A DNA stretch of 33,585 nucleotides. It comes from Coriobacteriia bacterium. Lineage in GTDB: Bacteria; Actinomycetota; Coriobacteriia; Coriobacteriales; UBA8131. Shown here piece by piece: positions 3,001 to 26,137 of the stretch. A program made the position numbers and the translations under genes. The notes below the pieces were generated by a model. It searched no databases. It saw nothing but the letters and a program-made list of their open reading frames with translations, and was not told the origin of the DNA. The DNA lies in NCBI GenBank assembly GCA_009781525.1, contig WQXZ01000001.1:1-33585 (forward strand). The letters are read 5' to 3'. The first letter of the stretch is position 1; each line of letters begins with the position of its first letter.

Positions 3001-3693
3001 GCCTGCACCAGTGCCACCACTGCGCTGGATATTGTTCATCAGGCGAATCTCGTAAATGCTGGTGTTGCTGATTGCGGCGCGCAGGTCGTTCCAGTTCTCG
3101 ACACCGACAACACCAGGCGAGATATCGATGAGCGCCAGCGGCATGATGCCTTCAAAGTCGGGGTCGGGGTCGCTGCCAGGCCAGTCGATGCCGCCGTCAC
3201 CGTCGCGGTCGGGGTTGGAGGCGGTGCCGCTGCCACTGCCAAGCCAGTCGATGCCGCCGTCACCGTCGCGGTCGGTGTCGCTGTCAAGCCAGTCGGGACC
3301 GGACCCGTATCCGAGCCCGATCCCGCCAGTTTCGCTGGGTCCGTCAAGCCCGAATCCGTCAGTTCCGAGCCCCCCTGAGCCAGACCCATTGTCGTATCCC
3401 CCTGGTAAAGCAGATCCATTACCAGGACTGACAGCATCTACGCTACCTGCCCAGTCTGGTAGGTCTGGTTGGCTATTGCTGCCTGGAGAGGTGTCCGTTG
3501 AGTTCCCATATTCGACCAGTGTATCTTGAGGAGCAATTATCTGGTCTGCAAACAATGCCAGCGGCATCAAAGCCACCAGCACCATATTGATAGTCAGAAG
3601 AATAATCAGTATCTTGGACAAGCCCTCTCTTCTACTGGTCCGGTAACGATTACCCCGATGGTGCCTGACCGATTTGTTTTGCCCCATACTCAT
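1..3693 (-). CDS. Large secreted/surface adhesin-like protein, N-terminal 1231 aa only (C-terminus lies beyond the left window edge). Signal-anchor, two Ca-binding thrombospondin-type-3-like repeats, then a long Gly/Asn/Thr-rich beta-helix (pectate-lyase-like adhesive) region.
   Basis: Hand translation of the minus strand from ATG 3691-3693 (MSMGQNKSVRHHRGNRYRTSRREGLSKILIILLTINMVLVALMPLALFA...) stays open for all 1231 codons and ends exactly in frame at base 1. It is absent from the supplied ORF track, presumably because there is no in-window stop. GGAAGGGGA Shine-Dalgarno ends 5 nt before the ATG. DSDTDRDGDGGIDW / NPDRDGDGGIDW repeats. The segment WNDLRAAISNTSIYEIRLMNNIQ...TLTINGQGFYLDF is typical of the start of beta-helix adhesive domains. 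Product call is by-eye motif recognition only. Confidence 0.8.
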   Translation of the reverse strand, partial: MSMGQNKSVRHHRGNRYRTSRREGLSKILIILLTINMVLVALMPLALFADQIIAPQDTLVEYGNSTDTSPGSNSQPDLPDWAGSVDAVSPGNGSALPGGYDNGSGSGGLGTDGFGLDGPSETGGIGLGYGSGPDWLDSDTDRDGDGGIDWLGSGSGTASNPDRDGDGGIDWPGSDPDPDFEGIMPLALIDISPGVVGVENWNDLRAAISNTSIYEIRLMNNIQRSGGTGAGNNLPAISRTLTINGQGFYLDFRDAASPNTNIAVAFVLNSAPANTAFTLRDLAIVRPNSGAADGSSLIYSTAANSTNWTINLHNLRAGTPAPVAGLVWTPRAVAVNVSGITSWDVGTNNSTIIDAPIQNYYGADTVVTFSGGNDPINANVAGRRNALSVVGGAKVFIYSRGTGATQAINMQAGTGSGTTAFIIVDGPGSLLDVRGNGSGTGVSGGTITMTAQAYNVSNGTGGGGFQITNGATLNVLSLRSGNNVGMPCIVQQIDGGNFIVDGPGTLMNLESFGCNNNLGGTIRFRSVGNQTFTVTNQATVNITKHASGGSYSPAAVRFGTGARNSFYVTGGASVSIINYGQTGNYATPATSGADQNKAAVEFDANYFTFHVDGLYSNINLISTQGAAVAAGTRTYGTIYVGPGAIFLAEGNLNSNSQGIFSAGNNFSFECYSPLYYNFMNTNPRVGARVFDANGSNNTFTSSYSDVAVWGNGTSRVGGNANATNSSDNAVSGNPYRSWTLNTYQLKGTNFNTFVSSTDPTFNTTASSFGSQGMTPYRRISGNNANPIIQSLLPATNADLYVRATGVVPEGLNFAGRPIWTDEVYGRFGILPAGETTWQQSIAGQVTSINPDNIYTVQTDVASISGVVRYTNGSYLMPGDSYRVDSAWRGLVDNPSASVHLATSITNQVVTVTDILPPKPATVTMPSNGKFWINLISHITGTWSPAAEQAAFEPHNPDPAVRLYAVVNTPGNFMTDSTGAPIQGQLNANGTWSFDIPDNYSSTLREGDTIYFVLADAQGNANPLVDTPCHDTMLLAAPGLLVSQPDLILTHQDAWITLDQAEAIARMSPTAQNDALMATINAQATIRAGAPPMSTELRIRSITPAWDDPDFYLDKNTFYAENPNGKEYLLVYESIADPTIYRVAKITVGYQTAFIGAFDFEISVNNAIRLMTLPAIERDSQLITLAEAKGRLSLDADYLAANVEVYLIGIPARPISGESYDITFHVKGGPTD
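3180..3275 (-). repeat. 33-bp perfect direct repeat with 63-bp period inside the adhesin gene
   Basis: GCCAGTCGATGCCGCCGTCACCGTCGCGGTCGG occurs at 3180-3212 and 3243-3275. On the minus strand it encodes the two PDRDGDGGIDW calcium-binding-like repeats. Confidence 0.85.
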
Positions 3694-3718
3694 TGTGTCC
3701 CCTTCCTGCACGTACTTC

Positions 3719-4513
3719 TTAAGAATCAGCAGCTTCATACATAGCAACCGGTTCAATACTGCTCAGCACCAGGCTGCTACTCTGCCTGACAAAACCAAAC
3801 AGACAGGCATCATTGACCGTAATCGCCTGTCCATTCAAAACCAATGTGTAGTGCGGACGCGCCAATATATAGACCGTTGACCTATCAACGGTTATCTCTC
3901 CGATAGTCAGACTGTGATAGGCAATCGAGTAACCGCTGTATGAAGTCAAAAACCTTTCTGCGTTGCTCCCAGTAATAATCACGTTATAAACAGCATCACT
4001 ATCACTGTTCAGATAAGCCACCCAATCAGAGTTGACGGCTAAAAGCACTGCTATAGCGGTCGCATCGATTAAAACCGTCTGACGCTGCTCACCACTGCCG
4101 ATGCTATATAGATAGTTATCAGAAAGAGGCTTCAAATCTGCCAGGTTGACCGAAGTCGACGCTTGGTCGATCCGACTGACGGTTAAGGATGGGTCATAGT
4201 AAATCTCAGCAATAGCTGCATTATGATTATGCTCAAGTTGGGACAATATCAAGGCTACTTGATCAGCATTCGCGTTTATCTGCTCAGCTGGCTTACCTGA
4301 GAAAACCAACGCCCCAACCAGCAGAACATCGACTGCACAGATAAATGCGATTAGCCATAAAACGCGTCGCTGCCACATGACGCGAGCATCAGAGCTTGCC
4401 TGCAGCACACGAGTTACTGTAGAAAGCCTCGTCACATCTGCAGACATAGCAAGTGCACTTGCCCTTTTGATATCCCCAACCGTCCTCTCCAATACGACAA
4501 ACAACCAGCCCAA
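3719..4513 (-). CDS. Hypothetical single-pass membrane protein, first gene of the adhesin operon
   Basis: 264-aa ORF ending 25 nt upstream of the adhesin ATG. One hydrophobic helix (VLWLIAFICAVDVLLVGALVF) is followed by a ~190-aa soluble domain with no motif I recognise. Start is uncertain: TTG at 4513, ATG at 4447 or ATG at 4378, none with a strong SD. Confidence 0.6.
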   Translation of the reverse strand: MGWLFVVLERTVGDIKRASALAMSADVTRLSTVTRVLQASSDARVMWQRRVLWLIAFICAVDVLLVGALVFSGKPAEQINANADQVALILSQLEHNHNAAIAEIYYDPSLTVSRIDQASTSVNLADLKPLSDNYLYSIGSGEQRQTVLIDATAIAVLLAVNSDWVAYLNSDSDAVYNVIITGSNAERFLTSYSGYSIAYHSLTIGEITVDRSTVYILARPHYTLVLNGQAITVNDACLFGFVRQSSSLVLSSIEPVAMYEAADS

Positions 4514-7434: not shown

Positions 7435-8508
7435 CTAGCCAGTTACTGAAAACAGGATGCTTCGAAGATTGCTCTGTTTTAGCATGAACATGGTGTTCTC
7501 ATACCTAAGCCTCTTCCCAAGCCTTATCGCCAGAAGTTTTGCAACCTTCTCAAGTTCTTTGTAACTATAAATCTGTTTGCTGGTAACAGTGTAGACAGTG
7601 ATGCCTATCGCATTCAGCACATTCCTTCGTTTCGAGTCACTGGCTATTCGCTCTGCTCCGGTGTGGTATTGATTACTGTCGTACTCCACTGCTAGATTCG
7701 CGTCGCGCCAAAGCAGATCACAGGAATAAAATGATTTACTTGAGTTGCTGCGGATCTCCTTGACCGGAGTTATCCGGCTGTTTAGCTCGGGAACTGGTAG
7801 TCCATAGCCACCTAACCTATACGGTAAAATCATCAGCATTACCAGGATGGTCTCCATTGGGGACGCAGACCCGTCAGCAATGTAATTCAGCGCTTTCCTT
7901 GCATTTTTGACTCCATCTGCTCCCTCCATTCTATCAACGAAAGCAGACAGCTTACTCACGCTAGTCAGCTGCGGACGACTGTAGAACCCGCTCAAAGCAC
8001 TGGTGGTAAGAGTGGCAGAAGCCGCGATAGCAGCGGCACCTGTAGCACCCTCTGTTCCAGCAGCATCTCTGTTGCCATCAACTCCCGAGTTCTTATACAC
8101 ATAGGTGTTGTTAGTTCCAGCAAATCCTGACAGCGAATAGGTTCCACAAAGCTCGAAACCAAGCATGATCAGCTTAATTAATGGCAGTTCGCTTGCCATT
8201 TGAACAAAACACAGTTCTGGCGAGGATATAAACACTCCATCGCCAAGATCGATCAGGCTTTTATCAGGCAACAGACTATTGCACACAATTGAGTGAAACT
8301 GGCGTGACCTTCGTTTTAGAGCGTTTCGATTCACCAGAATACTTAGCGGTAGAGGCAAGCCAAGATTGCTTGCTGTACCGAGAGTCGTTTCAGCAGGCAG
8401 AGTGTCAGGGGTTCTTCTACTGCGAGCATGTTTATTACTTCCCAACATGCCGCCCCCATGGATACGCCAGTATTGTTGTGCAGATTGGTGTGAGATACAT
8501 ATTTCCAT
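7435..8508 (-). CDS. DUF559 / restriction-endonuclease-like fold protein with AbiEi-like N-terminal region
   Basis: 357-aa ORF. The C-terminal block DLLWRDANLAVEYDSNQYHTGAERIASDSKRRNVLNAIGITVYTVT matches the DUF559 (Vsr-like endonuclease fold) pattern. N-terminus reads ISHQSAQQYWRIHG. There is an internal Ala/Thr/Gly low-complexity insert. The gene and its flanks are visibly AT-richer than neighbouring genes. Confidence 0.7.
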   Translation of the reverse strand: MEICISHQSAQQYWRIHGGGMLGSNKHARSRRTPDTLPAETTLGTASNLGLPLPLSILVNRNALKRRSRQFHSIVCNSLLPDKSLIDLGDGVFISSPELCFVQMASELPLIKLIMLGFELCGTYSLSGFAGTNNTYVYKNSGVDGNRDAAGTEGATGAAAIAASATLTTSALSGFYSRPQLTSVSKLSAFVDRMEGADGVKNARKALNYIADGSASPMETILVMLMILPYRLGGYGLPVPELNSRITPVKEIRSNSSKSFYSCDLLWRDANLAVEYDSNQYHTGAERIASDSKRRNVLNAIGITVYTVTSKQIYSYKELEKVAKLLAIRLGKRLRYENTMFMLKQSNLRSILFSVTG

Positions 8509-8514
8509 AATGCT

Positions 8515-8520
8515 ATTATA
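8515..8520 (-). promoter_or_regulatory. Candidate -10 box (TATAAT) placed for a leaderless transcript of the DUF559 gene
   Basis: Minus strand reads GCTAGTATAATAGCATTATG. A perfect TATAAT lies 6 nt before the ATG at 8508 and there is no SD. The -35 is poor. Confidence 0.3.
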
Positions 8521-8667
8521 CTAGCATGTTCCGCTCAGATTATGGTCTCTTCTTCTCTTTTGTTTTCACCTTAATCACATATTCTCGTGTTATTACCTGT
8601 TAAACAACTCGTTTAGGAGGTGCGGACGGATGGCAATCAACCCCGATGAGATCACTGAGAATGCTCC

Positions 8668-8880
8668 GCGTCAAAAAATCCTAGTTGACGGCAGAGATTG
8701 ACGATTGTGGCGATTTTGGCTCTTATGTGAAGCTGCTTTCTTTGTGATGTCACAAGCATATAATGCAAACATGCAGGTCAGAGCCTTGTTCTTCGAACTC
8801 GTTATTATTTTGAATGTCGCCATTTACACTCAAATCGCCACAATCGTCAATCTCTGCCGTCAACTAGGATTTTTTGACGC
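8668..8880. repeat. Long inverted-repeat element E1: 49-bp perfect arms (8668-8716 / 8832-8880) around a 115-bp spacer, with imperfect arm extension to ~8629 and ~8919
   Basis: GCGTCAAAAAATCCTAGTTGACGGCAGAGATTGACGATTGTGGCGATTT and its exact reverse complement. The flanks GGCAATCAACCCCGATGAG (left) and CTCGATTCGGTGGTTGATTCC (right) are imperfectly complementary. Intergenic, between the DUF559 gene start and the rubrerythrin-operon end. Confidence 0.9.
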
Positions 8881-9010
8881 ACGCAACGCATTGGGCTCGA
8901 TTCGGTGGTTGATTCCGTGAGCGTAGCGCTGGCTTCTGTTCGAATCTTGCCCGCCCGCTCAGCCTTTATATCTGGATAAGACCTCGCTCCTTAAGCTTGC
9001 CTCAAACGCG

Positions 9011-9131: not shown

Positions 9132-12100
9132 CTAGCCAGCCATTAGCTGCCTTTTGCGGCTGGTCAGCACCAGGTAGCATCCAACCAGCAGCATTGATAT
9201 TGAGCCTGCTCCGGCAAAGAGCACCCCTGGGCTCTCGCCGGTCTTCGGTGTAGTGGAAGACCTGAGCGCAGTGTGCAGAATAAAGCTACTGACTGAAGCT
9301 CTGCAGATCGGGCAGGTGGTGAAGTCGATGCTGTTCGCAGGGAATACTGCACCACAGATCGGACAGCGATAGACAATCTCGTATGTATCCCTAAGATATT
9401 GAGCATCGCTGATGTTTGCTAAAGCGTCAGCAAAGATACCAGCATGTACATTTTCAGCTGCTCCAGCTCGGTTGAACATGCTTCTTGCAGCGGAGTATCC
9501 TTCAGCATCAGCGTCAGCACCGAAATCCGGATACATCACCGAATACTCATAGGTCTCGCTATCGATAGCCGCTTGGAGGTTCTCTGCGGTAGTGCCGACT
9601 GTTGGAGTTGCAGCTATCGGGCGAGATGCTGGGTCTGCTCCCATCGCAAGTAACAATATCCACTCGTCATCAGCATGTTTCTGCTCTGCTGCTGCTGTTG
9701 CTCTGAACAGGTTAGCTATATCGGGATACCCCTCTGCCTGTGCTTTCACTGCAAAAGCAAGGTAAGCAGCAGCAGCATTGGACTCGCCTTGAACCGAAGA
9801 CATCAGGTTGCTAAAGGTGTCTGACGAGAGCACTGAGATATAGGATGCAAAGCTGGCTACACCTGCACCACAGATCGGGCAGTTGGAAGCTGGAACGCTG
9901 TCTCCGGTAAACACTGCTCCGCAGACCGGGCAGCGCCAGACCTGACCAAATGTATCTGCCAGATAGCCAGCATCATCCAGGTTGGCTAATGCATCGGCAA
10001 AGTTGCCTGCGTGTACCTCTTCAGCGGCACCGGCTCGATTGAACATGTTTCTTGCAGAAGTTCTGCCTTCAGCATTTGCATCAGCAGCAAAACCTGGGTA
10101 CATCACAGAGTATTCATAGGTCTCACCGTCGATAGCCGCTTGGAGGTTCTCTGCGGTAGTGCCGACTACCGGGGTTGCAGCTATCGGGCGAGATGCTGGG
10201 TCTGCTCCAATCGCCAACAATAGCGCCCACTCATCATCTGCATGCTTCTGTTCTGCAGCAGCTGTTGCTCTGAACAGGTTTGCTATATCGGGATACCCCT
10301 CTGCCTCTGCCTTCGCAGCAAAAGCAAGGTAAGCAGCAGCAGCATTGGACTCGCCTTGAACCGAAGCCATCAGGTCCATGAATGTGTTCGAGGAGAAAAC
10401 AGCAATATATGGCACAAACCCTGCAGCAGCCGCACCACAGATCGGGCAGTTGGAAACCGGTATGGTGTCTCCGGTAAACACAGCTCCGCAGACCGGGCAG
10501 CGCCAGACCTGACCATATGCATCTGCCAGATAGCCAGCATCATCCAGGTTGGCTAATACATCGGCAAAGTTGCCTGCGTGCACCTCTTCAACCGCACCAG
10601 TTCTATTGAACATATTTCTCGCTGCAGTAAAGCCTTCAAGCTGTGCGTAAGCAGCAAAACCTGGATACATCACGATGTATTCATAGGTCTCACCGTCAAT
10701 AGACGCTTGGAGGTTCTCTGCGGTAGTGCCGACTGTTGGAGCTGCAGCAAGAGGGCGAGTCGCAGGGTCAGCGCCCATCGCCAGTAACAACGCCCACTCA
10801 TCATCTGCATGCTTCTGTTCTGCAGCAGCTGTTGCTCTATACAGATTGGCGATACCAGAATACCCTTCGGCTTCAGCCTTTGCCGCAAATGCAAGATAGG
10901 CAGCAACGGCGTTGGTCTCACCTTGAATCGAATCAATAAGAGCAGCAAAGGTATCTGAAGAGAGGATGGCGTTGTATGAGACAAAACTGCTTATTCCTGC
11001 ATTACAGATCGGGCAGCGGGAACCCGGTATGGTGGCTCCAGTAAACACTGCACCACAGACCGGGCAGCGCCAGACCTGGTTAAAGCTCTCTGCCATGAAA
11101 CTTGCATCAGCAAGATTATTCAGTGCTGTTGTAAAGTTACCAGCATGCATCTGTTCAGCTTGAAGCGTTCTTGTAAACAGGTTCCTGGCTGCTGTATACC
11201 CCTCATCAAGCGCATCTTGAGCAAAAACAGGATACATAACAGTGAACTCATAGGTTTCGCCGTCGATCGCAGCCTGTAGGTTCTCAGCGGTTGTACCTAC
11301 AGCAGGCACCGCTGCAGTAGGTCGGCTAGCAGGATCAGCACCTAAACTTAAAAGAATCGCCCATTCGTCATCAGCATGCTTTGCTTCAGCAGCAGCAGTA
11401 GCAGTGAACAGATTGGCGATATATAAGTACCCGTCAGCTTTCGCTTTTGCCGCAAATGCTGTATAGGCTGCAGCTGCATTGGTCTCACCCTGCACAGCAT
11501 CCATTAGGTTTGAATAGGTATCAGTGAATCTGAAAGAGATCGTCGTTCTGAACATCGGCTTTTCAACACCACAGATCGGGCAAACATTCGGCACAGAGTC
11601 ATCTGTATATACCGCCCCACAGGTTGGGCATCGATAAACGGTGCCGAAAGCATAGATCAGCTCATCAACATCACCCAGGTTTGCCAGGGCGAAGGAGAAG
11701 TTCTGAGCATGCACCTCTTCAACCTGCCTGGTTCTGTTAAAGGTGTTCCGAGCTAAAACGTTACCGTCTAGTTCCGCATCATTAAAAAACCCTGGATACA
11801 TTACAGTGAACTCATATGTCTCGCCGTCAATAGCAGCTTGCAGGTTCTCAGCAGTGGTGCCAACGGTTGGAGTTGCAGCAACTGGGCGATCTGCAGCGTC
11901 AGCGCCCAGGCTAACGAGTAAAGCCCATTCGTCATCGGCATGCTTTGCCTCAGCAGCAGCGGTTGCGCGGAACAGGTTGGCAATATCTGGGTGTCCTTCA
12001 CTTTCTGCTTTTATCGCAAAAGCTGTGTAGGCAGCAGCGGCATTGGTCTCGCCTTGAACAGCATCCATCAGATTGTTATAGGTGTCACCAGCCGCAGCAT

Positions 12101-12209
12101 ATACCCTTGGAGGAACAAACACCCCAGCTAAAACCAGTATTAACGACAACGTTGTTGCCAAGACTCTCTTTGCTAACCTCGCATGGATGGCGGTCGACGT
12201 AAGCTCCAT
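9132..12209 (-). CDS. Exported, cell-wall/membrane-anchored protein made of five tandem complete rubrerythrin modules (diiron four-helix bundle plus rubredoxin-like Cys4 domain)
   Basis: 1025-aa ORF with GGAGGGG SD ending 5 nt before the ATG. N-terminal signal-like segment MELTSTAIHARLAKRVLATTLSLILVLAGVFVPPRVYAAAGD. Five ~189-aa repeats start at about aa 42, 230, 419, 608 and 797. Each has QGE[TS]NA, AAAE[AQ]KH, TAENLQAxIDxETYE, an ExxH (EEVHA/EQMHA/ENVHA) and [YW]RCPxCGAV...CPIC. The C-terminus TTPKTGESPGVLFAGAGSISMLLVGCYLVLTSRKRQLMAG is an LPXTG-like sorting signal. Confidence 0.9.
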   Translation of the reverse strand: MELTSTAIHARLAKRVLATTLSLILVLAGVFVPPRVYAAAGDTYNNLMDAVQGETNAAAAYTAFAIKAESEGHPDIANLFRATAAAEAKHADDEWALLVSLGADAADRPVAATPTVGTTAENLQAAIDGETYEFTVMYPGFFNDAELDGNVLARNTFNRTRQVEEVHAQNFSFALANLGDVDELIYAFGTVYRCPTCGAVYTDDSVPNVCPICGVEKPMFRTTISFRFTDTYSNLMDAVQGETNAAAAYTAFAAKAKADGYLYIANLFTATAAAEAKHADDEWAILLSLGADPASRPTAAVPAVGTTAENLQAAIDGETYEFTVMYPVFAQDALDEGYTAARNLFTRTLQAEQMHAGNFTTALNNLADASFMAESFNQVWRCPVCGAVFTGATIPGSRCPICNAGISSFVSYNAILSSDTFAALIDSIQGETNAVAAYLAFAAKAEAEGYSGIANLYRATAAAEQKHADDEWALLLAMGADPATRPLAAAPTVGTTAENLQASIDGETYEYIVMYPGFAAYAQLEGFTAARNMFNRTGAVEEVHAGNFADVLANLDDAGYLADAYGQVWRCPVCGAVFTGDTIPVSNCPICGAAAAGFVPYIAVFSSNTFMDLMASVQGESNAAAAYLAFAAKAEAEGYPDIANLFRATAAAEQKHADDEWALLLAIGADPASRPIAATPVVGTTAENLQAAIDGETYEYSVMYPGFAADANAEGRTSARNMFNRAGAAEEVHAGNFADALANLDDAGYLADTFGQVWRCPVCGAVFTGDSVPASNCPICGAGVASFASYISVLSSDTFSNLMSSVQGESNAAAAYLAFAVKAQAEGYPDIANLFRATAAAEQKHADDEWILLLAMGADPASRPIAATPTVGTTAENLQAAIDSETYEYSVMYPDFGADADAEGYSAARSMFNRAGAAENVHAGIFADALANISDAQYLRDTYEIVYRCPICGAVFPANSIDFTTCPICRASVSSFILHTALRSSTTPKTGESPGVLFAGAGSISMLLVGCYLVLTSRKRQLMAG
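9254..12086 (-). repeat. Five in-frame tandem repeats of ~567 bp, one rubrerythrin module each
   Basis: Module boundaries at about 12086, 11522, 10955, 10388, 9821 and 9254. Long near-identical DNA stretches link modules 3-5, e.g. CATCGGCAAAGTTGCCTGCGTG[TC]ACCTCTTCA near 9990 and 10560. Similar plus-strand shadow ORFs recur at 9444, 10011 and 10578 with 567-bp spacing. Confidence 0.9.
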
Positions 12210-12422
12210 GGTTTCCCCTCCATTTGCTAAATCACACTGCTATAGCTTGAATCTCATTTTCTGCTCGAAAACATAATATACCGTCGCCTAATAGGAATAC
12301 AGCAGAATAGAAATATTCTTGCATGATGAATTAAGAACAACTTGAGCGAATACATGCTAGCTCTCATTCATTACAGCTAACCGCAGTATTCTATTTGCGA
12401 AATGATGGCAGCACCTAAAAGC

Positions 12423-13805
12423 CTACGAACGTCTGCGCGAGTCCCCGAATCCTCTGGATACGATAATCATGCCGGCAGCCAATAAGGTCAAAGCTATCAC
12501 TTTCACTCGCTGGCTGAATACCCCTTCAGCTTCAGCCTCATCGACCTGATGCTCCAGAAAATCATCAACAGACGCTCGGCAGATCGAGCAGTTATCCCCA
12601 GGTAAGGGCACCACTGTGCCGGTATCTCCTGCCGAGAACACTGCGCCACAAACCGGACAGCGATAGAGCGTCCCAAAGGCTTCAGCCAGATACTCGGCAT
12701 CGTCAAGCCTTGCCAGTGCATACTCAAAGTTGATGCCATGCACAGCCTCAACTGCGCTTAACTGGAAGAACAACCGGCTTGCATCGGCGCTTCTACTACC
12801 GGCACCGCGTGCTGTAGTAAAATTTGGATACATCGTGATGTACTCATAAGTCTCGCCGTCTATTGCAGCCTGCAGGTTCTCAGCCGTTGACCCAACAACC
12901 GGCACTGCGGCTTTCGGACGATCAGCAGGCTTAGCCCCCATCGCAGTCAGGATCACCCATAGCTCGTCCGCGTGCTGCTGCTCAGCAGCTGCAGTTGCTA
13001 AGAACAGATTAGCGACATCTAAATAGCCTTCATCCTCAGCCTGTTCAGCATAGGCAGTATAGGCAGCTACCGCGTTAGTCTCACCCTGAACGGCCGTCAT
13101 CAGATTCTCGTAGGTATCGACCACTGATGTCGCAATATACCGAACAAATCTCACAGTAGCCGTTCCGCAAACCGGACAATTCGAAGTCGGCACCGTAGCA
13201 GCGCTGAATACCGCCCCGCAAACCGGACAGCGATAAACAGTGCTATAAGTATCCACCATATAATTACGAGCCTGTATGTTTTCTAAAGCATCCGCGTAGT
13301 TTCCGGCATGAATCTGCTCAGCTTTCATAGCCCTGTTGAACACCGAGATAGCATCACTCGCATACTCAGCCCGCGCCTCCTCAATAAACGATGGATACAT
13401 CACCGTGTACTCATAGATCTCGCCATCGATTGCCGCCTGCAGGTTCTCAGCTGTGGTTCCCACCGACAACTCGCCAACCGCCGGACGGGTCACGCTCCGG
13501 TCAAGGTCAATCAACGCGTACCATTCATCTTCAGAATGCTTTTTCTCTGCATCAGAAGTCGCTCTGAACAGATTCGCCACCTCGTAATAACCTTCTGCCT
13601 CTGCCACATCGGCAAAGGCGGAATAAGCTGCAGAGGCGTTGGTCTCGCCTTGAATCGCACTCATCAGATTGCGCTCAGTATTCTCAGTTGCTGCAAAGAC
13701 CCCAACAGGTAAAGTCATCCCAAATAGCATAAACACCAGAGCTATCGCGGCAACAGTAACCAGTCTGGAGCGTTTTTTATTTGTGGATAAAATCGACGTC
13801 TTCAT
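12423..13805 (-). CDS. Exported, C-terminally membrane-anchored protein with two tandem rubrerythrin modules
   Basis: 460-aa ORF. Signal-like N-terminus MKTSILSTNKKRSRLVTVAAIALVFMLFGMTLPVGVFAATEN. Both modules carry QGETNA, ExxH (DAEKKH / AAEQQH), TAENLQAAIDGE, ExxH (AEQIHA / VEAVHG) and CPVCG...C[PS][VI]C. C-terminal hydrophobic helix VIALTLLAAGMIIV plus basic tail SRGFGDSRRRS, with no obvious xPxTG motif. Confidence 0.9.
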   Translation of the reverse strand: MKTSILSTNKKRSRLVTVAAIALVFMLFGMTLPVGVFAATENTERNLMSAIQGETNASAAYSAFADVAEAEGYYEVANLFRATSDAEKKHSEDEWYALIDLDRSVTRPAVGELSVGTTAENLQAAIDGEIYEYTVMYPSFIEEARAEYASDAISVFNRAMKAEQIHAGNYADALENIQARNYMVDTYSTVYRCPVCGAVFSAATVPTSNCPVCGTATVRFVRYIATSVVDTYENLMTAVQGETNAVAAYTAYAEQAEDEGYLDVANLFLATAAAEQQHADELWVILTAMGAKPADRPKAAVPVVGSTAENLQAAIDGETYEYITMYPNFTTARGAGSRSADASRLFFQLSAVEAVHGINFEYALARLDDAEYLAEAFGTLYRCPVCGAVFSAGDTGTVVPLPGDNCSICRASVDDFLEHQVDEAEAEGVFSQRVKVIALTLLAAGMIIVSRGFGDSRRRS

Positions 13806-13884
13806 TCCCGGTCTCCCATTTCACTCCGATGTTTGTATCTTTATCTGCATTTTACATGGTCTACTCCCAAAACACTGTCAAAAG

Positions 13885-16005
13885 CTAAAAGCTGTATGAG
13901 CGGGATCGGAATACTCCTATCTTCAGACGACGATGCACAACAAGTATTGCCACGCCAAGCCCACATGTAAGCGAAGCAAGTAGTGCTGCTGCAACGCCGC
14001 TGTCACCAGTCTTTGGTGTCTCAGTGTTGTCAGATGGTGGAGGTGGCGTGGTGTTTTTCGTCCAAGTCGCTGTCACAGTAACATTCTTTACTGGCATGGT
14101 GAAATAGGTACTGGCACGCCCCGCATCTGCAAAAACCACATCGTCACTTGTTACCCAGCCCGCAAATGTATATCCTGGCCGGCTCCCAGCACCAATCGTG
14201 ACTACTTCATCCTCAAAATAGAGACTTTCTCCACTGTTTAATGCAAAGCTATCTACAACTGTGACTCTGTACTCGGGTGGGTCTGACAAGGTCAGGTATC
14301 TGAAGTCGGCATCGTCTATGCCGGGTACTGGTAGGGTTTTCGTGCTCATTTCATAACCATCTGGATAAGTAACCAGGCTATCGTCGTTGAAAATGATGTC
14401 GTTGCCGGCAAGGTATCTGCCGTCGCCCTTGCTTGCGGTGATGTCTGGCTCGAGAATCAGCGGGTGCGCGAGGCGGAAAGTGTCAGAATACTTTGCCCAG
14501 AATGCGCCGCCGGTTATCAGATTCAGTCGTCCTGCGGGCGCGTTCAGGCAGTCTATGGCGTGGCTGTCGCCAATGATCACGCCGCCAGAGATGTGCTCGA
14601 TCAGGCCATTGTTTAGAATGCCACAACCGAGCAGACTGCTTTCGTTGGTAGCTATCAAGCCACCGCTTATTTCGCCGATGCTGCCGTTTTCGTAGACCCA
14701 GATTCCAGCTCTGCCGCCGATGATCTCTGCTTGTCCAGAAATCGACTTGACACTGCCGGCGGCAAAGATCCCGTAGCTGCGACCGTAAATCTCTCCGCCT
14801 GTGATTGATTTGATAACGCTGCCAGGCTCGTTTTGGATGCCGATGCCGCCGACGAAAGAGCCGCCAGAAATCGAGTCGATTCTCGAGCCTTCGCCGAACA
14901 TCCAGATACCGATTCTACCCCCGCTGACCTGGCAGTTTGTTATGGAGTTGATGCCGCCGGCTGGATAGTCCTCAGAGTAGATCACGATCACGCCATTGGT
15001 ACTGGCGTTCAGCGACACAAACTCGCCGCCGGATATCAACTCGACCCAGCTGCCGCGCACAACGCCCAGCGCGCTGGTTTTAGATGACTGAAAGTAGCCA
15101 CCAGAAATCGTGCCGATCCGCCCTTGATTCTGCACAAAGACTGCCTGGCCATTCAGTGTCACTGACGCGTTTGTCTGATAGATTGAGCCCCCCGAGATCT
15201 CGTCTACCCTTGAGCCGTTGCCACTGACCAGCAGTCCGATGTTTGACGCATAGATTTCTCCACCGGTAATCGATATAACTCTGGCTCCCCCCATTACCTC
15301 CAGTCCATGGTCGGAGCCTCTGATTATGCCACCACTGACGCTGCAGGTAACATTAGCGCCATTCAGCAAGACAATGCCTCTCAGAGTCACGCCAGCTCTG
15401 ATGTGAACAGCGCCATTTGTAGCATTAACCGATGGCGAAATGGTTGAGATTGTCAGTTGGTTTTCGCCAATGCCGTCACCAAGAGTCAAAGTGCCACCGC
15501 TTTGCACCCGCAGACAGTAGGCTGCCAAAGTCACGATGTGATTACCTTCAGCAGCGACCAGTGTCACATCTGACGTGATAAGAACGTCGCCTGCCTCAGT
15601 CACATTGTCGATGACCTCAAGAGTGAATGCCGAGATGCCTTCTGCGTTGGCTGCCGTGATTGCCTCCGTCATGGTGTCGTACAGCTCACCAGTCTCAACC
15701 AGCCGAACCGGATGTTCAGGCGAATCTTCCAGTGAAAAAATGCCCTCGACTGCTCCAGCTGGCTCGCGTTCCGCGTCTGCCCCGGCTACCTCATTTCCAG
15801 GCTTCGCTTCCTCGCTTGCTTCGCGCTCCGCGACCTCGCTACCTTCGGCATCGTCTGCATCGTTTACCAGTTCATGCAAGCTACTGTCACCTTCCGTGTC
15901 AGTTGCGTAGACCGGTGTTGGCAATAACTGCAGATAAGCCGAAAACAGGAAAGCCGTTAACAGCAGCTTCATTACCCTTTTTGAGTTGGTTTTGGATTGA
16001 ATCAT
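13885..16005 (-). CDS. Cell-wall-anchored surface protein: signal peptide, acidic linker, about a dozen I-[ST]-G-G beta-helix-type repeats, one Listeria-Bacteroides (Flg_new) repeat domain, and a TPKTG sorting signal
   Basis: 706-aa ORF with AAGGGGG SD. N-terminus MIQSKTNSKRVMKLLLTAFLFSAYLQLLPTPVYATD. Repeats of ~22-24 aa (ISITGGEIY, EISGGSIY, TISGGYF, LISGGEF, SISGGSF, SITGGEIY, EISGGLI, HISGGVI, LITGGAF and others). YRVTVVDS...RPGYTFAGWVTSDDVVF...VTVTATW matches the Flg_new pattern. C-terminus ETPKTGDSGVAAALLASLTCGLGVAILVVHRRLK. Confidence 0.85.
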   Translation of the reverse strand: MIQSKTNSKRVMKLLLTAFLFSAYLQLLPTPVYATDTEGDSSLHELVNDADDAEGSEVAEREASEEAKPGNEVAGADAEREPAGAVEGIFSLEDSPEHPVRLVETGELYDTMTEAITAANAEGISAFTLEVIDNVTEAGDVLITSDVTLVAAEGNHIVTLAAYCLRVQSGGTLTLGDGIGENQLTISTISPSVNATNGAVHIRAGVTLRGIVLLNGANVTCSVSGGIIRGSDHGLEVMGGARVISITGGEIYASNIGLLVSGNGSRVDEISGGSIYQTNASVTLNGQAVFVQNQGRIGTISGGYFQSSKTSALGVVRGSWVELISGGEFVSLNASTNGVIVIYSEDYPAGGINSITNCQVSGGRIGIWMFGEGSRIDSISGGSFVGGIGIQNEPGSVIKSITGGEIYGRSYGIFAAGSVKSISGQAEIIGGRAGIWVYENGSIGEISGGLIATNESSLLGCGILNNGLIEHISGGVIIGDSHAIDCLNAPAGRLNLITGGAFWAKYSDTFRLAHPLILEPDITASKGDGRYLAGNDIIFNDDSLVTYPDGYEMSTKTLPVPGIDDADFRYLTLSDPPEYRVTVVDSFALNSGESLYFEDEVVTIGAGSRPGYTFAGWVTSDDVVFADAGRASTYFTMPVKNVTVTATWTKNTTPPPPSDNTETPKTGDSGVAAALLASLTCGLGVAILVVHRRLKIGVFRSRSYSF

Positions 16006-16258
16006 TTTGCCCCCTTGCGTCTTGATTCTATATTCGGTTTTCTTGAAGCATTGCTATTTATATCTTGTACTAGCTATCTTCACTCAACATAAAACCATCT
16101 CTGATGCAATCTGTAAAGTGGCACGTGCAAAATAGTCCACAAAAATCAAGTTAACTGCTGGTCAAGCGCCGCACCGGTTCGCACCGTAGACAATCAACCC
16201 CAACCAGTAACCAACCCCACCGAAGGCTTGCTGCGACCTTAATCTGGCACATCAGTAT

Positions 16259-16428
16259 TTCGTAGCAGAATATTGCGGTTTAGTACACGATTCGACCTGA
16301 ACCGCACAGCTTTTCATAGGTTTGTGTACCGTTATTCGGACACTGATGCCAGTATTTGGCTCCCATACGCCAATTATCTGATGATTTACATGCCGACGCT
16401 GTACTAAACCGCAATATTCTGCTACGAA
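16259..16428. repeat. Long inverted-repeat element E3: 29-bp perfect arms (16259-16287 / 16400-16428) around a 112-bp spacer, 254 bp upstream of the surface/rubrerythrin operon start
   Basis: TTCGTAGCAGAATATTGCGGTTTAGTACA and its exact reverse complement. The flanks (~16200-16258 and 16429-16490) are weakly complementary, e.g. CCCACCGAAGG versus CCTGTCGGTGAG. Confidence 0.9.
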
Positions 16429-16560
16429 CTAGGTGTTTGCATTTGCTGTGACCTGTCGGTGAGAGTAAGGTGACCCAGTAGTTAGTTGCAGGTTGTATTA
16501 GGTTGCGTGTTGCGAAGCTTGTGCAGCTTGGATGGGTAATGACATCGCAATACTTTCAGA

Positions 16561-24582: not shown

Positions 24583-25059
24583 TTACAGGTTGCTCAACAA
24601 CAGCTCCACTGCCTGATGTGGAAAGTCTTCCGAAGCTTCCTGTTGCACTGCTTCTAACAGTTTCCTGGCCTGCTGGCTTTGCGGCAACAGGTATCCTGCT
24701 TCACGAAGAACATCTTCAGCCATTAATCGGCATGACCTGGCGATTGCTTGAGCAAATTGCTTTTCTATGTCGCTTTCTGTTGAATTGGTGACGGCGTCTG
24801 CCAACTGTTGTTGTTTGAGCTTGTTGGATGCAAGCAAGAACTGAGCAGCAACCACATCCTCTGCCTTTGCCTGCTGAGTCGGATACTTATTGGGAATCAT
24901 CGAAATCGCCCCAGAGATGCAGGCTTTTACACAAGCCATGCACTCAATGCACTTATCCACATCAATAATACTATTCTCAGTGTCAGTCGCTCCTGTTGGG
25001 CAGACGTACAGGCAAAGACAATCCTTACCGCATAGGCGGATGTTTCGAAAAGCTGGCAT
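24583..25059 (-). CDS. 4Fe-4S ferredoxin-like domain protein with a helical C-terminal extension
   Basis: MPAFRNIRLCGKDCLCLYVCPTG...DVDKCIECMACVKACISGAI contains eight Cys in two cluster-like motifs, followed by ~95 aa of helical sequence. The ATG at 25057-25059 lies 2 nt after the upstream gene's TAA, which implies translational coupling. The 16 extra residues in the track ORF were rejected. Confidence 0.75.
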   Translation of the reverse strand: MPAFRNIRLCGKDCLCLYVCPTGATDTENSIIDVDKCIECMACVKACISGAISMIPNKYPTQQAKAEDVVAAQFLLASNKLKQQQLADAVTNSTESDIEKQFAQAIARSCRLMAEDVLREAGYLLPQSQQARKLLEAVQQEASEDFPHQAVELLLSNL

Positions 25060-25061
25060 GC

Positions 25062-25805: not shown

Positions 25806-26008
25806 ACTACTCATCTCCCCACTACATCGAAAACCTATCAGGCTCACTGGTGTGAACTGCGCATTAGTATACTCCTCTCCACTCTGCCTGTGACCTATGC
25901 TGGTGTTCCGAGTGTCTGATATATACCCTGTTAACCATATGCTGCATAATCTGTGCCAGTAAACGTATAGATTTCTGGCACATGGGTATCGCATATATCG
26001 CGCAGACT

Positions 26009-26032
26009 TCGCAAACCTGCTCGCAAACCTGC
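26009..26032. repeat. Perfect 12-bp tandem duplication (TCGCAAACCTGC x2) ~200 nt upstream of the rubredoxin-fusion gene
   Basis: 26009-26020 and 26021-26032 are identical. Lies in the intergenic region between tRNA-Ala and the rubredoxin operon. Confidence 0.7.
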
Positions 26033-26137
26033 CTGATTGCATAGCTCCCAAAAAACTAGGTGGCAAGTTCTTAAGACAGGTTTTGGGGCGGCTGCAGACA
26101 TAGCCGGGGTGTTAGCGATTTTCGCCCCAATAATGCA

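What the first reader, a model, noticed from the sequence alone, without database searches (positions are those of the whole stretch)
9132..16005. Operon encoding exported, surface-anchored poly-rubrerythrins (2 + 5 tandem modules) behind a beta-helix wall protein
Three co-directional genes lie at 13885-16005, 12423-13805 and 9132-12209, separated by 79 and 213 nt, each with its own SD. Each starts with a basic-then-hydrophobic Sec-type signal sequence and ends in a hydrophobic helix plus basic tail. Genes 2 and 3 consist almost entirely of 2 and 5 complete rubrerythrin modules. All 7 modules keep the full diiron ligand pattern (QGE[TS]NA, ExxH, TAENLQAAIDxE..E, ExxH) and both CxxC knuckles of the rubredoxin-like domain, so they do not look like decayed scaffolds. 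In established knowledge rubrerythrins are cytoplasmic, single-module peroxidases reduced by cytoplasmic rubredoxin or NAD(P)H-linked partners. Here the positive-inside rule and the sorting signals place about 21 iron sites (3 per module, by analogy with canonical rubrerythrin) outside the membrane. No twin-arginine motif is present, so folded cofactor-loaded export via Tat is not indicated. That leaves open how iron is inserted and what donates electrons. Hypotheses (inference): an extracellular H2O2/O2-scavenging shield for an anaerobe, surface ferroxidase or iron storage, or a terminal module of extracellular electron transfer. I know of no described surface-anchored multi-module rubrerythrin, but I cannot search databases from here.
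Basis: partly seen in the sequence, partly recalled or inferred. Interest (0 to 1): 0.85.

Follow-up and report, generated by a model that had tools for sequence, protein, structure and literature searches.

The report
Surface-displayed tandem rubrerythrin arrays
A gut Coriobacteriia bacterium encodes two secreted, cell-surface-tethered proteins built from two and five intact copies of rubrerythrin, an iron peroxidase described so far only inside cells. They belong to a large, apparently undescribed class of exported rubrerythrins found across many anaerobes.

Summary
There are three co-directional minus-strand genes with 79- and 213-nt gaps. Each has a Shine-Dalgarno sequence, a Sec-type signal peptide and a C-terminal hydrophobic helix with a basic tail. 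Genes 2 and 3 hold 2 and 5 complete rubrerythrin modules. All 7 modules keep the 7 diiron ligands and 4 Cys, fold like nigerythrin (TM 0.82) and are under purifying selection (dN/dS 0.10-0.36).

Extracytoplasmic location is supported independently. The closest homologues (46-63% identity per module, 1-8 modules) nearly all have signal peptides. They are fused to dockerin, SLH, T9SS, Ig-like or cohesin domains or carry C-terminal membrane anchors. More distant single-module relatives are lipoproteins, and some have Tat signals that pass TIGR01409.

All genome hits are termite-gut MAGs from bacteria and archaea. The host is a Coriobacteriia MAG, and NCBI calls all three proteins 'hypothetical'. 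I found no paper describing exported or multi-module rubrerythrins.

The most likely function is an extracellular H2O2/O2-scavenging iron array, metallated after Sec export and reduced by diffusible reductants. This is inference. No conserved redox partner or neighbour exists. Gene 1 (a beta-helix surface protein) is not conserved next to rubrerythrin genes. This is a new variant of a known kind.

The parts
13885..16005 (-). Gene 1 (706 aa; NCBI 'hypothetical protein FWD45_00040'). Signal peptide (residues 1-34), acidic disordered linker (about 28-94), beta-helix/solenoid body (about 100-540), InlB B-repeat (592-651), and an LPXTG-like sorting signal TPKTGD + TM + basic tail (663-706).
   Evidence: AF2 model: pLDDT 83.9, with regular short strands over residues 100-540. 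Foldseek found no significant hit, but every top hit is a beta-helix protein: pertactin, tailspikes, autotransporter passengers.
15904..16005 (-). Gene 1 signal peptide (MIQSKTNSKRVMK + h-region + PVYA|TD).
   Evidence: Modelled as an N-terminal helix, residues 8-27.
13888..14019 (-). Gene 1 C-terminal cell-wall sorting signal (TPKTGD, hydrophobic helix, HRRLK... tail).
   Evidence: (TIGR01167 13.9 bits, below the 15.9 cut-off). Homologues carry LPQTGD, QPSTGD, APQTGG or APRTGD at the same place.
12423..13805 (-). Gene 2 (460 aa; MCL2631474.1 'hypothetical protein FWD45_00035'). Signal peptide, 2 rubrerythrin modules, and a C-terminal TM anchor with an RRRS tail. No xPxTG motif.
   Evidence: AF2 pLDDT 92.7. 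Best PDB match is nigerythrin, TM 0.82-0.83, rmsd 1.5 A.
13122..13685 (-). Gene 2 module 1 (residues 41-228).
   Evidence: 314 bits against the window-module HMM. All 11 metal ligands are present.
12534..13121 (-). Gene 2 module 2 (residues 229-424), with a longer loop between the two CxxC knuckles.
   Evidence: 306 bits. All 11 ligands are present.
12426..12515 (-). Gene 2 C-terminal TM anchor plus basic tail (residues 431-460).
9132..12209 (-). Gene 3 (1025 aa; MCL2631473.1 'hypothetical protein FWD45_00030'). Signal peptide, 5 rubrerythrin modules, and an LPXTG-like sorting signal.
12096..12209 (-). Gene 3 signal peptide (residues 1-38, RVYA|AAG).
11526..12089 (-). Gene 3 module 1 (residues 41-228).
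   Evidence: Nigerythrin 1yuz E = 1e-28.
10959..11525 (-). Gene 3 module 2 (residues 229-417).
10392..10958 (-). Gene 3 module 3 (residues 418-606).
9825..10391 (-). Gene 3 module 4 (residues 607-795).
9258..9824 (-). Gene 3 module 5 (residues 796-984).
9135..9251 (-). Gene 3 C-terminal sorting signal (TPKTGE, hydrophobic helix, SRKRQ tail; residues 987-1025).
   Evidence: (TIGR01167 14.8 bits against a 15.9 cut-off).

Best explanation
Genes 2 and 3 encode Sec-exported rubrerythrin arrays displayed outside the cytoplasmic membrane of a monoderm Coriobacteriia bacterium. Gene 2 (2 modules) stays tethered to the membrane by a C-terminal TM helix. Gene 3 (5 modules) is probably attached to peptidoglycan by a sortase through a TPKTG signal.

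Each module is an independent nigerythrin-type unit: a four-helix-bundle diiron site plus an Fe(Cys)4 knuckle domain. The modules are exported unfolded and take up Fe(II) from the anoxic, iron-containing surroundings (inferred).

The arrays most likely act as a peri-cellular H2O2 (and possibly O2) reductase layer. The solvent-exposed Fe(Cys)4 sites would accept electrons from diffusible extracellular reductants such as Fe2+, reduced quinones/humics, flavins or thiols. They would pass them to the diiron sites, which reduce peroxide to water by two electrons before it reaches the cell or drives Fenton chemistry.

Shown here: architecture, export signals, ligand integrity, fold, purifying selection, and a recurrent extracellular context in homologues. 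Inferred: metallation route, substrate, electron donor, and sortase attachment.
For: Architecture and ligands.

Fold: nigerythrin 1yux/1yuz, TM 0.82-0.83, rmsd 1.5 A; sequence E = 1e-28.

Selection: dN/dS between modules is 0.10-0.36 with dS mostly saturated, so these are old duplicates that have been maintained. In 91 exported-clade modules the 4 Cys are invariant and each diiron ligand is kept in 85-91 of them.

Extracellular location:
- The host is a Coriobacteriia MAG.
- Signal peptides and positive-inside C-terminal anchors are present.
- 30 of 32 closest homologues have signal peptides, and many carry dockerin, SLH, T9SS, cohesin or Ig-like domains. Cytoplasmic fusions in the same list have no signal peptide.
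- The T9SS domain of P0018 scores 54 bits. TIGR01409 Tat signals pass the cut-off in P0208 and P0235. Synerg-CTERM is borderline in P0207.
- NCBI itself names the P0235 cluster 'twin-arginine translocation signal domain-containing protein'. Tat-exported relatives imply that a cofactor-loaded protein is wanted outside the cytoplasm.

Multiplicity is selected repeatedly. Module number ranges from 1 to 8, and 56 of 80 modules have their nearest relative within the same protein.

Ecology: all 7 genome loci are termite-gut MAGs from Clostridiales, Bacteroidales and Bathyarchaeia, plus Methanoplasma termitum. From my own knowledge, this is a habitat with steep O2 influx and abundant Fe(II) and humics.

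Rubrerythrin is established as an H2O2 reductase with reported ferroxidase activity (PMC3317640 introduction).
Against: No catalytic, metal or localisation data exist.

No electron donor is identified. There is no conserved neighbour or redox partner in the window or in five other loci.

The signal peptide and topology calls rest on my own heuristics, because SignalP and DeepTMHMM were not available. The sortase motif is non-canonical and just below the TIGR01167 cut-off, and no sortase gene is in the window.

Some homologues have lost diiron ligands but keep Cys4: P0009 (all 3 modules), P0011 module 1, P0017 module 3 and P0020 module 1. So at least in those, peroxide reduction cannot be the retained function.

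Cys4 and diiron sites could take up Zn or other metals outside the cell.
Confidence: 0.55

Rival explanations
1. Extracellular ferroxidase or iron-handling array. The main role would be to oxidise and capture Fe2+ at the cell surface, for iron acquisition, local storage or detoxification, with H2O2 or O2 only as the oxidant. This is analogous to Dps/ferritin chemistry or to the Tat-exported EfeB peroxidase of the EfeUOB iron uptake system.
For: The fold is ferritin-like, with bacterioferritins among the Foldseek hits. Ferroxidase activity has been reported for D. vulgaris rubrerythrin (cited in PMC3317640). About 21 iron sites lie per gene pair. A paralogue of gene 1 from the same sample sits next to a heme-binding Shp protein and a periplasmic binding protein. 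One SLH-bearing homologue (P0188) gives weak partial matches, far below cut-off, to NEAT-domain-protein and iron-uptake-porin models over its C-terminal SLH-like region.
Against: No iron transporter or siderophore genes lie beside the poly-rubrerythrin genes. Rubrerythrins do not form storage cages. The invariant Cys4 electron-entry site points to catalysis with an external reductant rather than storage. This reading overlaps mechanistically with the best explanation if Fe2+ is the donor.
Confidence: 0.2
2. Wall-spanning electron conduit or extracellular terminal reductase. The membrane-tethered 2-module protein and the wall-linked 5-module protein would form a chain of iron centres. The chain would carry respiratory electrons from the membrane to H2O2, O2 or another external acceptor and so conserve energy, comparable to periplasmic cytochrome c peroxidase respiration or Gram-positive extracellular electron transfer.
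For: One protein is membrane-anchored and one is probably wall-anchored, encoded side by side. Tandem arrays with up to 8 modules evolved repeatedly. From my own knowledge, the Fe(Cys)4 sites in rubrerythrin have high potentials, well above menaquinol.
Against: No quinol oxidase, flavin-transfer (PplA/FmnB/Ndh2-type) or cytochrome genes are in the window or in other loci. The TM anchor is a single cofactor-less helix. Many homologues hang on dockerins, SLH domains or T9SS anchors far from any membrane. AF2 inter-module geometry is only moderately defined (pTM 0.65), and I could not measure iron-iron distances.
Confidence: 0.1
3. Structural or adhesive surface scaffold. The modules would be used as rigid, metal-stabilised (for example Zn-ribbon) spacer domains in surface proteins, with no redox role.
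For: Some homologues have lost diiron ligands while keeping all four Cys (P0009, P0011 module 1, P0017 module 3, P0020 module 1). The modules are combined with adhesin-like domains (Ig-like, InlB repeat, beta-helix) and with cohesin/dockerin. The gene cluster contains other adhesin-like surface proteins.
Against: 83 of 91 exported modules, and all 7 here, keep all seven diiron ligands across archaea and four bacterial phyla. That is hard to explain for a spacer. Tat-signal variants imply a need for a folded, cofactor-loaded protein. dN/dS is 0.1-0.36.
Confidence: 0.08
4. Ordinary cytoplasmic rubrerythrins with misjudged starts and ends. The terminal hydrophobic segments would not be targeting signals.
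For: One gene caller started gene 2 at M26, which removes most of the leader (P0179). No dedicated predictor was run.
Against: The long starts have Shine-Dalgarno sequences and the short one does not. All three genes share the same n-h-c organisation and a V-[YF]-A cleavage site. Both termini are hydrophobic with a positive tail. Homologues carry unambiguous extracellular sorting domains.
Confidence: 0.02

Closest known systems
Nigerythrin (Desulfovibrio vulgaris; PDB 1yux/1yuz)
   Same: It is the best sequence match (E = 1e-28, 37-39% identity) and the best structural match (TM 0.82-0.83, rmsd 1.5 A over 181 columns). It has the same 7 diiron ligands plus a C-terminal Cys4 domain. It also shares the long loop between helices B and C.
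   Different: Nigerythrin is a single-module protein of about 200 aa with no signal peptide. Here there are 2 or 5 modules in one chain, with a Sec signal peptide and surface anchors. Each module scores only about 110 bits against NF045783, whose cut-off is 340.
Rubrerythrin (D. vulgaris 1b71/1ryt; P. furiosus 1nnq/3mps): cytoplasmic rubredoxin- or NAD(P)H-linked H2O2 reductase
   Same: Same Pfam domains, PF02915 plus PF21349. Same ligand set. The same peroxide-reducing diiron chemistry is expected by homology.
   Different: Location (extracytoplasmic), multiplicity, anchoring, and the absence of any cytoplasmic-type reductant. The canonical partner, rubredoxin, cannot reach the array.
Periplasmic di-haem cytochrome c peroxidase (Ccp) and Tat-exported DyP peroxidase EfeB/YwbN (functional analogues, from my own knowledge)
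   Same: These are extracytoplasmic peroxide-reducing metalloenzymes of bacteria. EfeB couples H2O2 reduction to Fe2+ oxidation outside Gram-positive cells.
   Different: They have unrelated folds and haem cofactors, are single-domain, and have defined electron donors or operon partners. No homology to them was found. The one weak TIGR01412 hit in P0208 runs from the Tat leader into the N-terminal part of the protein and is far below cut-off (18.7 bits against 428).
Sortase-anchored multi-NEAT haem proteins (Isd family) and cellulosomal dockerin proteins (architectural analogues, from my own knowledge)
   Same: They are tandem cofactor-binding modules displayed on the Gram-positive wall through an LPXTG-type signal. 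The homologues P0007, P0008 and P0012 use dockerins.
   Different: Different folds, different cofactors (haem against non-haem iron), and a different function (haem relay).
Exported 'erythrin-only' arrays (P0022, P0187, P0199) found here
   Same: They have a signal peptide, 4-6 tandem diiron four-helix-bundle modules and a C-terminal TM anchor.
   Different: They lack the Cys4 domain altogether, are only about 32% identical, and are also uncharacterised.

Membership tests
Rubrerythrin/nigerythrin family (PF02915 + PF21349) | Four-helix-bundle diiron site with ligands E, ExxH, ExxE, ExxH (7 ligands) | tested here: met
   All 7 modules have invariant ligands in an alignment with 1yuz and 3mps. 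Pfam PF02915 matches 5 times and 2 times.
Rubrerythrin/nigerythrin family (PF02915 + PF21349) | C-terminal rubredoxin-like Fe(Cys)4 domain (two CxxC knuckles) | tested here: met
   All 7 modules have it. PF21349 hits are found. The 4 Cys are invariant in 91 of 91 exported-clade modules.
Rubrerythrin/nigerythrin family (PF02915 + PF21349) | Three-dimensional fold matches solved rubrerythrins | tested here: met
   AF2 pLDDT 92.7. Foldseek: nigerythrin TM 0.82-0.83, rmsd 1.5 A.
Rubrerythrin/nigerythrin family (PF02915 + PF21349) | NCBIfam equivalog score per protein (RuberyRbr 200 bits, Nigrythrn 340 bits) | tested here: inconclusive
   The whole-protein sums pass for gene 3 (556 and 551 bits), but each module contributes only about 110 bits. 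Gene 2 scores 208 and 221 bits. NCBI names the proteins 'hypothetical'.
Rubrerythrin/nigerythrin family (PF02915 + PF21349) | Iron content and H2O2 reductase activity | not testable with these tools
   This needs recombinant or native protein.
Canonical (described) rubrerythrins | Cytoplasmic, single-module, no signal peptide | tested here: not met
   Signal peptides, 2 and 5 modules, and C-terminal anchors are present.
Sortase (LPXTG) cell-wall-anchored proteins (genes 1 and 3) | N-terminal Sec signal peptide | tested here: met
   There is a basic n-region, a hydrophobic h-region and a V-Y-A cleavage site. This is a heuristic call; SignalP was not available.
Sortase (LPXTG) cell-wall-anchored proteins (genes 1 and 3) | LPXTG pentapeptide followed by a hydrophobic stretch and a positively charged tail (TIGR01167) | tested here: inconclusive
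   The motif is TPKTG[DE]. TIGR01167 scores 14.8 and 13.9 bits against a cut-off of 15.9. Homologues of gene 1 show LPQTG, QPSTG, APQTG and APRTG at the same position.
Sortase (LPXTG) cell-wall-anchored proteins (genes 1 and 3) | A sortase encoded by the genome | not testable with these tools
   Only this 33.6-kb contig is available, and it has no sortase gene.
Tat substrates | Twin-arginine S/T-R-R-x-F-L-K motif in the n-region | tested here: not met
   None of the three window proteins has it. It is present in the distant relatives P0208 and P0235, where TIGR01409 scores 19.6 and 21.7 bits against a cut-off of 16.7.
Right-handed beta-helix surface proteins (gene 1) | Parallel beta-helix fold | tested here: inconclusive
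   The AF2 model has regular short strands over residues 100-540 at pLDDT above 90. Every top Foldseek hit is a beta-helix protein, but the best E-value is 0.018 and the best TM-score is 0.38 or lower.
Operon (genes 1-3 co-transcribed) | Shared promoter, no internal terminators, conserved gene order | tested here: inconclusive
   The genes are co-directional with short gaps. Promoter and terminator scans are at chance level. The order gene 1 then rubrerythrin is not conserved elsewhere.

The most novel reading that the evidence does not exclude
The membrane-tethered 2-module protein and the wall-linked 5-module protein together form a non-haem-iron 'wire' through the Gram-positive envelope. 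The wire would deliver metabolic electrons to H2O2 or O2 outside the cell. It would be an extracellular terminal peroxidase/oxidase, the first non-haem, non-flavin extracellular electron-transfer chain. Versions of it would have spread by horizontal transfer among bacteria and archaea of the termite gut.
Probability: 0.1. Interest if true: 0.92.

Novelty: new variant of a known kind. Interest (0 to 1): 0.72.

Why it matters
Rubrerythrin is the textbook peroxide scavenger of strict anaerobes, and it is always discussed as a cytoplasmic enzyme fed by rubredoxin or NAD(P)H. These genes, and the more than 100 related clusters with Sec, lipoprotein or Tat signals, indicate that many anaerobes also place this chemistry outside the membrane. 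Depending on lineage, the protein sits on the cell wall, S-layer, outer surface, cellulosome or periplasmic face.

That opens several concrete questions. How do obligate anaerobes defend their surface and their extracellular enzymes against O2 and H2O2 at oxic-anoxic interfaces such as the termite gut wall? What reduces a non-haem iron enzyme outside the cell? How are Fe(Cys)4 and diiron sites assembled after Sec export? Why is multiplicity (up to 8 modules) repeatedly selected?

The proteins are small, modular and readily expressed, so the hypotheses can be tested directly. They also flag a systematic annotation gap, since the proteins are named 'hypothetical protein' or 'ferritin family protein'.

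Tried and rejected
1. Domain-fusion link between gene 1 and rubrerythrin. The N-terminal beta-helix-like parts of P0020, P0023 and P0009 show no significant BLASTP similarity to gene 1 (best E = 0.026). Rejected.

2. Conserved synteny between gene 1 and rubrerythrin. Three neighbourhoods of gene 1 homologues contain no rubrerythrin gene. Rejected.

3. A conserved redox partner next to poly-rubrerythrin genes. None was found in five loci or in the window.

4. Promoter and terminator scans to settle operon structure gave counts at chance level. Uninformative.

5. Literature. R. flavefaciens 'extracellular' rubrerythrin (PMC3672088) and Brachyspira surface-proteome rubrerythrin (PMC4955376) concern ordinary proteins found in supernatant or surface fractions. 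The former is a 20-kDa protein that the authors themselves would expect to be intracellular; neither paper reports an export signal or a multi-module form. They are not the same thing. Searches for rubrerythrin combined with dockerin, twin-arginine, periplasmic, termite, 'extracellular rubrerythrin' and similar terms gave nothing relevant.

6. Rfam found only one tRNA in the window.

7. The 17-nt repeat upstream of genes 1 and 3 was sought in 17 other loci and not found.

8. A profile search of the PDB with the gene 1 family matched only the InlB B-repeat.

9. I could not extract coordinates from the AF2 models, so inter-module iron-iron distances and pseudo-dimer packing were not assessed.

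10. The origin of the window's own sample (ENA ERZ27264051, or the NCBI MAG with locus-tag prefix FWD45) could not be checked. The termite-gut assignment rests on the relatives only.

Full report
**1. Observation**

All are on the minus strand, with gaps of 79 and 213 nt. Each ATG is preceded by a purine-rich Shine-Dalgarno-like sequence: AAGGGGG, GGGAGA and GGAGGGG. A shorter start for gene 2 chosen by another gene caller (M26, P0179) has none.

Pfam finds five PF02915 rubrerythrin domains with PF21349 rubredoxin-like domains in gene 3, and two in gene 2. Gene 1 matches only an InlB B-repeat near its C-terminus. The gene 3 modules start at residues 43, 231, 420, 609 and 798, a period of 189 aa.

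I aligned the modules with D. vulgaris nigerythrin and P. furiosus rubrerythrin. All seven have the complete ligand set: E, ExxH, ExxE, ExxH, and two CxxC knuckles. In genes 2 and 3 the only Cys outside the knuckles is inside the C-terminal TM helix of gene 3.

Hydrophobic segments occur essentially only at the extreme N- and C-termini. The exception is one marginal 19-mer at gene 3 residues 588-606 (1.63 against a threshold of 1.6). For gene 1 the N-terminal stretch falls below the 19-mer threshold but is modelled as a helix. The leaders have basic n-regions, 18-21-residue h-regions and V-[YF]-A cleavage sites, and none has a twin arginine. The C-terminal helices are followed by basic tails.

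Genes 1 and 3 also carry TPKTG[DE]S just before the helix, which is an LPXTG-like sorting signal. TIGR01167 scores just below its cut-off. Homologues of gene 1 have LPQTG, QPSTG, APQTG or APRTG at the same position. Gene 2 has no such motif and should stay membrane-anchored.

**2. Host and context**

The RpoA encoded in the window is 100% identical to an NCBI protein of a 'MAG: Coriobacteriia bacterium' on a 33,585-bp contig, which is this window. That is a monoderm actinobacterium, so 'outside the membrane' means the wall zone or the cell surface.

NCBI names the three proteins 'hypothetical protein' FWD45_00040, FWD45_00035 and FWD45_00030. The flanking genes are housekeeping: purH, ddl, rlmN, rplQ, rpoA, rpsD/K/M and purA. 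Another large adhesin-like surface protein runs off the window start.

**3. Are the modules real enzymes or decayed scaffolds?**

- An AF2 model of the gene 2 ectodomain is confident (pLDDT 92.7). Each half superposes on nigerythrin 1yux/1yuz with TM 0.82-0.83 and rmsd 1.5 A.
- Pairwise dN/dS between the seven modules is 0.10-0.36, with synonymous sites mostly saturated. For the youngest pair, modules 3 and 4 of gene 3, dN is 0.115 and dS 0.63. These are old duplicates kept under purifying selection.
- Across 91 modules of the exported clade, the four Cys are invariant and each diiron ligand is retained in 85-91 of them.
- A few homologues (P0009, P0011 module 1, P0017 module 3, P0020 module 1) have lost diiron ligands. 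None of the window modules has.

**4. Independent evidence for export**

A search of 5.8 billion proteins returned 41 hits. The 32 best are 32-60% identical to gene 3 in the best local alignment, and most modules are 46-63% identical to a gene 3 module. They contain 1-8 modules, and 30 of the 32 begin with classical signal peptides.

Many of them also carry domains that occur only outside the cytoplasm:

- dockerin (P0007, P0008, P0012)
- SLH (P0019, P0021, P0029)
- T9SS C-terminal domain (P0018 scores 54 bits on TIGR04183)
- cohesin plus Peptidase_S15 (P0031, P0032)
- Big_2 and He_PIG

The remaining nine hits are cytoplasmic fusions to rubredoxin, glutamate-synthase-like or other redox domains. 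None has a signal peptide, which serves as an internal control. They also score far lower against the window-module HMM (88-118 bits per module, against 160-344 bits).

A profile of 29 exported modules was searched against 1.84 billion cluster representatives. It found 7,577 proteins at E < 1e-3 and 316 at E < 1e-30. Of the best 150, at least 105 have signal-peptide-like leaders by my heuristic: 79 plain, 23 with a lipobox and 3 with a strict RRxF[LMI] motif. Only 17 look like canonical leaderless proteins of 165-195 aa.

TIGR01409 confirms Tat signals in P0208 and P0235, and Synerg-CTERM is borderline in P0207. NCBI itself names members of the P0235 cluster 'twin-arginine translocation signal domain-containing protein [Lachnospiraceae]'.

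So exported rubrerythrins are a large class using Sec, lipoprotein and Tat routes. The window carries its most elaborate Gram-positive form.

**5. Ecology and evolution**

A scan of 185,579 species-representative genomes used peptide patterns from gene 3. It found relatives only in termite-gut MAGs: a Clostridiales MAG (two loci), Ca. Azobacteroides, and four Bathyarchaeia MAGs including Ca. Bathycorpusculum. Ca. Methanoplasma termitum also has one (P0020).

The patterns were narrow, so this describes the close clade only. The habitat of the window's own sample could not be verified.

Gene 3 modules are each other's nearest relatives. Overall, 56 of 80 modules in multi-module proteins have their nearest neighbour in the same protein. 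Arrays have therefore expanded independently in several lineages, which points to selection for multiplicity itself.

**6. Gene 1 and the 'operon'**

Gene 1 is modelled as follows (pLDDT 83.9):

- signal helix
- acidic disordered linker
- a long regular beta-strand solenoid (residues 100-540, pLDDT above 90)
- B-repeat
- TM helix

Foldseek gives no significant hit. Every top match is a beta-helix protein (pertactin, tailspikes, autotransporters), with a best E of 0.018. 'Beta-helix surface protein' is therefore reasonable but only weakly supported.

Its homologues form a paralogous surface-protein family. They are not found next to rubrerythrin genes, and gene 1 shows no similarity to the N-terminal parts of fused homologues. 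Poly-rubrerythrin genes elsewhere sit in unrelated housekeeping contexts without a common neighbour. Promoter and terminator scans are at chance level.

Co-transcription is possible but unproven. Functional coupling of gene 1 to the rubrerythrins is not supported.

**7. Mechanism**

Shown: export signals, anchors, intact metal sites, fold, selection, and a recurrent extracellular context.

Inferred: after Sec export the unfolded modules fold and bind Fe(II) outside the cell. From my own knowledge, apo-rubrerythrin can be reconstituted with Fe2+ in vitro, and anoxic gut fluid contains Fe2+. The existence of Tat-exported relatives shows that a cofactor-loaded protein is what is needed outside.

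Rubrerythrin's established activity is two-electron H2O2 reduction, with ferroxidase activity also reported (PMC3317640). The cytoplasmic donors (rubredoxin, NAD(P)H-linked reductases) cannot reach an external array, and no partner is encoded nearby.

The most economical model is therefore that the exposed Fe(Cys)4 sites are reduced by diffusible reductants such as Fe2+, reduced humics or quinones, flavins or thiols. The diiron sites would then remove H2O2, and perhaps O2, at the surface. The result would be a peroxide and anti-Fenton shield for the cell and, in the dockerin versions, for extracellular enzyme complexes.

I put about 0.55 on this. The rivals are:

- iron oxidation or capture as the primary purpose (0.2, mechanistically overlapping)
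- a wall-spanning electron conduit or extracellular terminal reductase (0.1)
- a structural scaffold (0.08)
- mis-assigned topology (0.02)

**8. Comparison with what is known, and novelty**

By sequence, ligands and fold these are members of the rubrerythrin/nigerythrin family. They break three descriptive features of the family as it has been characterised: cytoplasmic location, a single module, and a rubredoxin or NAD(P)H donor.

Seven full-text searches found no description of exported, periplasmic, surface or multi-module rubrerythrins. The two 'extracellular rubrerythrin' proteomics reports concern ordinary rubrerythrins found in supernatant or surface fractions, with no export signal or multi-module form reported.

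My verdict is a new variant of a known kind: a novel localisation and architecture of a well-known enzyme, and part of a large unrecognised class. Interest is 0.72.

Noticed in passing
window 16256-16287 / 16400-16431, and 12376-12392: A 32-nt inverted repeat (97% complementary, 112-nt spacer) lies 250-425 nt upstream of gene 1 and folds as a long hairpin (RNA z = -6.5). Its 17-nt core, AGAATAYTGCGGTTWAG, recurs with 2 mismatches upstream of gene 3, giving 3 matches against 0.18 expected. It could be a shared operator, a MITE or a structured leader. It is absent from 17 other fetched loci.
   Followed up: partly
window 8668-8716 / 8832-8880: A perfect 49-nt inverted repeat with a 115-nt spacer lies between the REase-like ORF (7435-8508) and the end of gene 3. 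Its geometry is similar to the repeat upstream of gene 1, so it may be a MITE-like element.
   Followed up: no
window 25062-26066 (-) and 24583-25107 (-): This protein has a rubredoxin domain, a Q/P-rich linker, a helical region without diiron motifs and a C-terminal rubrerythrin-type Cys4 knuckle. Its real start is probably near M85. It overlaps a 4Fe-4S ferredoxin-like ORF. It looks like a cytoplasmic redox pair unrelated in position to the exported arrays.
   Followed up: partly
window 1-3762 (-): An open frame of more than 1254 aa runs off the window start. It encodes a signal-anchored surface protein with a pectate-lyase-like adhesive domain (PF20585) and beta-helix-like repeats. The region is rich in surface proteins.
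   Followed up: partly
L014 9-9865 (Clostridiales MAG WRHF01000027.1); P0031, P0032: The dockerin-bearing 4-module rubrerythrin P0007 follows two Peptidase_S15 + PepX_C + cohesin + dockerin genes. The same peptidase-cohesin architecture is fused directly to a rubrerythrin module in P0031 and P0032. This suggests a functional link inside a cellulosome-like complex.
   Followed up: no
P0022, P0187, P0199 (database proteins): These exported proteins have 4-6 tandem diiron four-helix-bundle modules but no Cys4 domain. They have a signal peptide and a C-terminal TM anchor. They represent a second, more distant kind of surface poly-erythrin.
   Followed up: no
P0208, P0235 (also P0212, P0288, P0298): These are single-module nigerythrin-like proteins with a twin-arginine signal plus a lipobox. 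TIGR01409 passes its cut-off in P0208 and P0235. The P0235 cluster has 43 members, including Lachnospiraceae MAGs. They indicate folded, cofactor-loaded export in some lineages.
   Followed up: partly
P0020 (Ca. Methanoplasma termitum, 1.49-Mb contig): This archaeal surface protein has two rubrerythrin modules. Module 1 has lost four diiron ligands but keeps Cys4. Module 2 ends in what looks like a frameshifted tail. It may be a decaying copy in the only cultured (enrichment) carrier.
   Followed up: no
L011 2422-7921 (same ENA sample as the window's second copy): A paralogue of gene 1 (41% identity) sits directly after a HemeBinding_Shp gene and a Peripla_BP_2 gene. This hints that this beta-helix surface family can be associated with haem or iron uptake loci.
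   Followed up: no
window 7435-8508 (-): A 357-aa ORF with a weak REase_MTES_1575 (DUF559-like endonuclease) domain is wedged between purH and the rubrerythrin cluster. GC content dips to 0.46 over 8001-9000. This may mark an insertion boundary.
   Followed up: no
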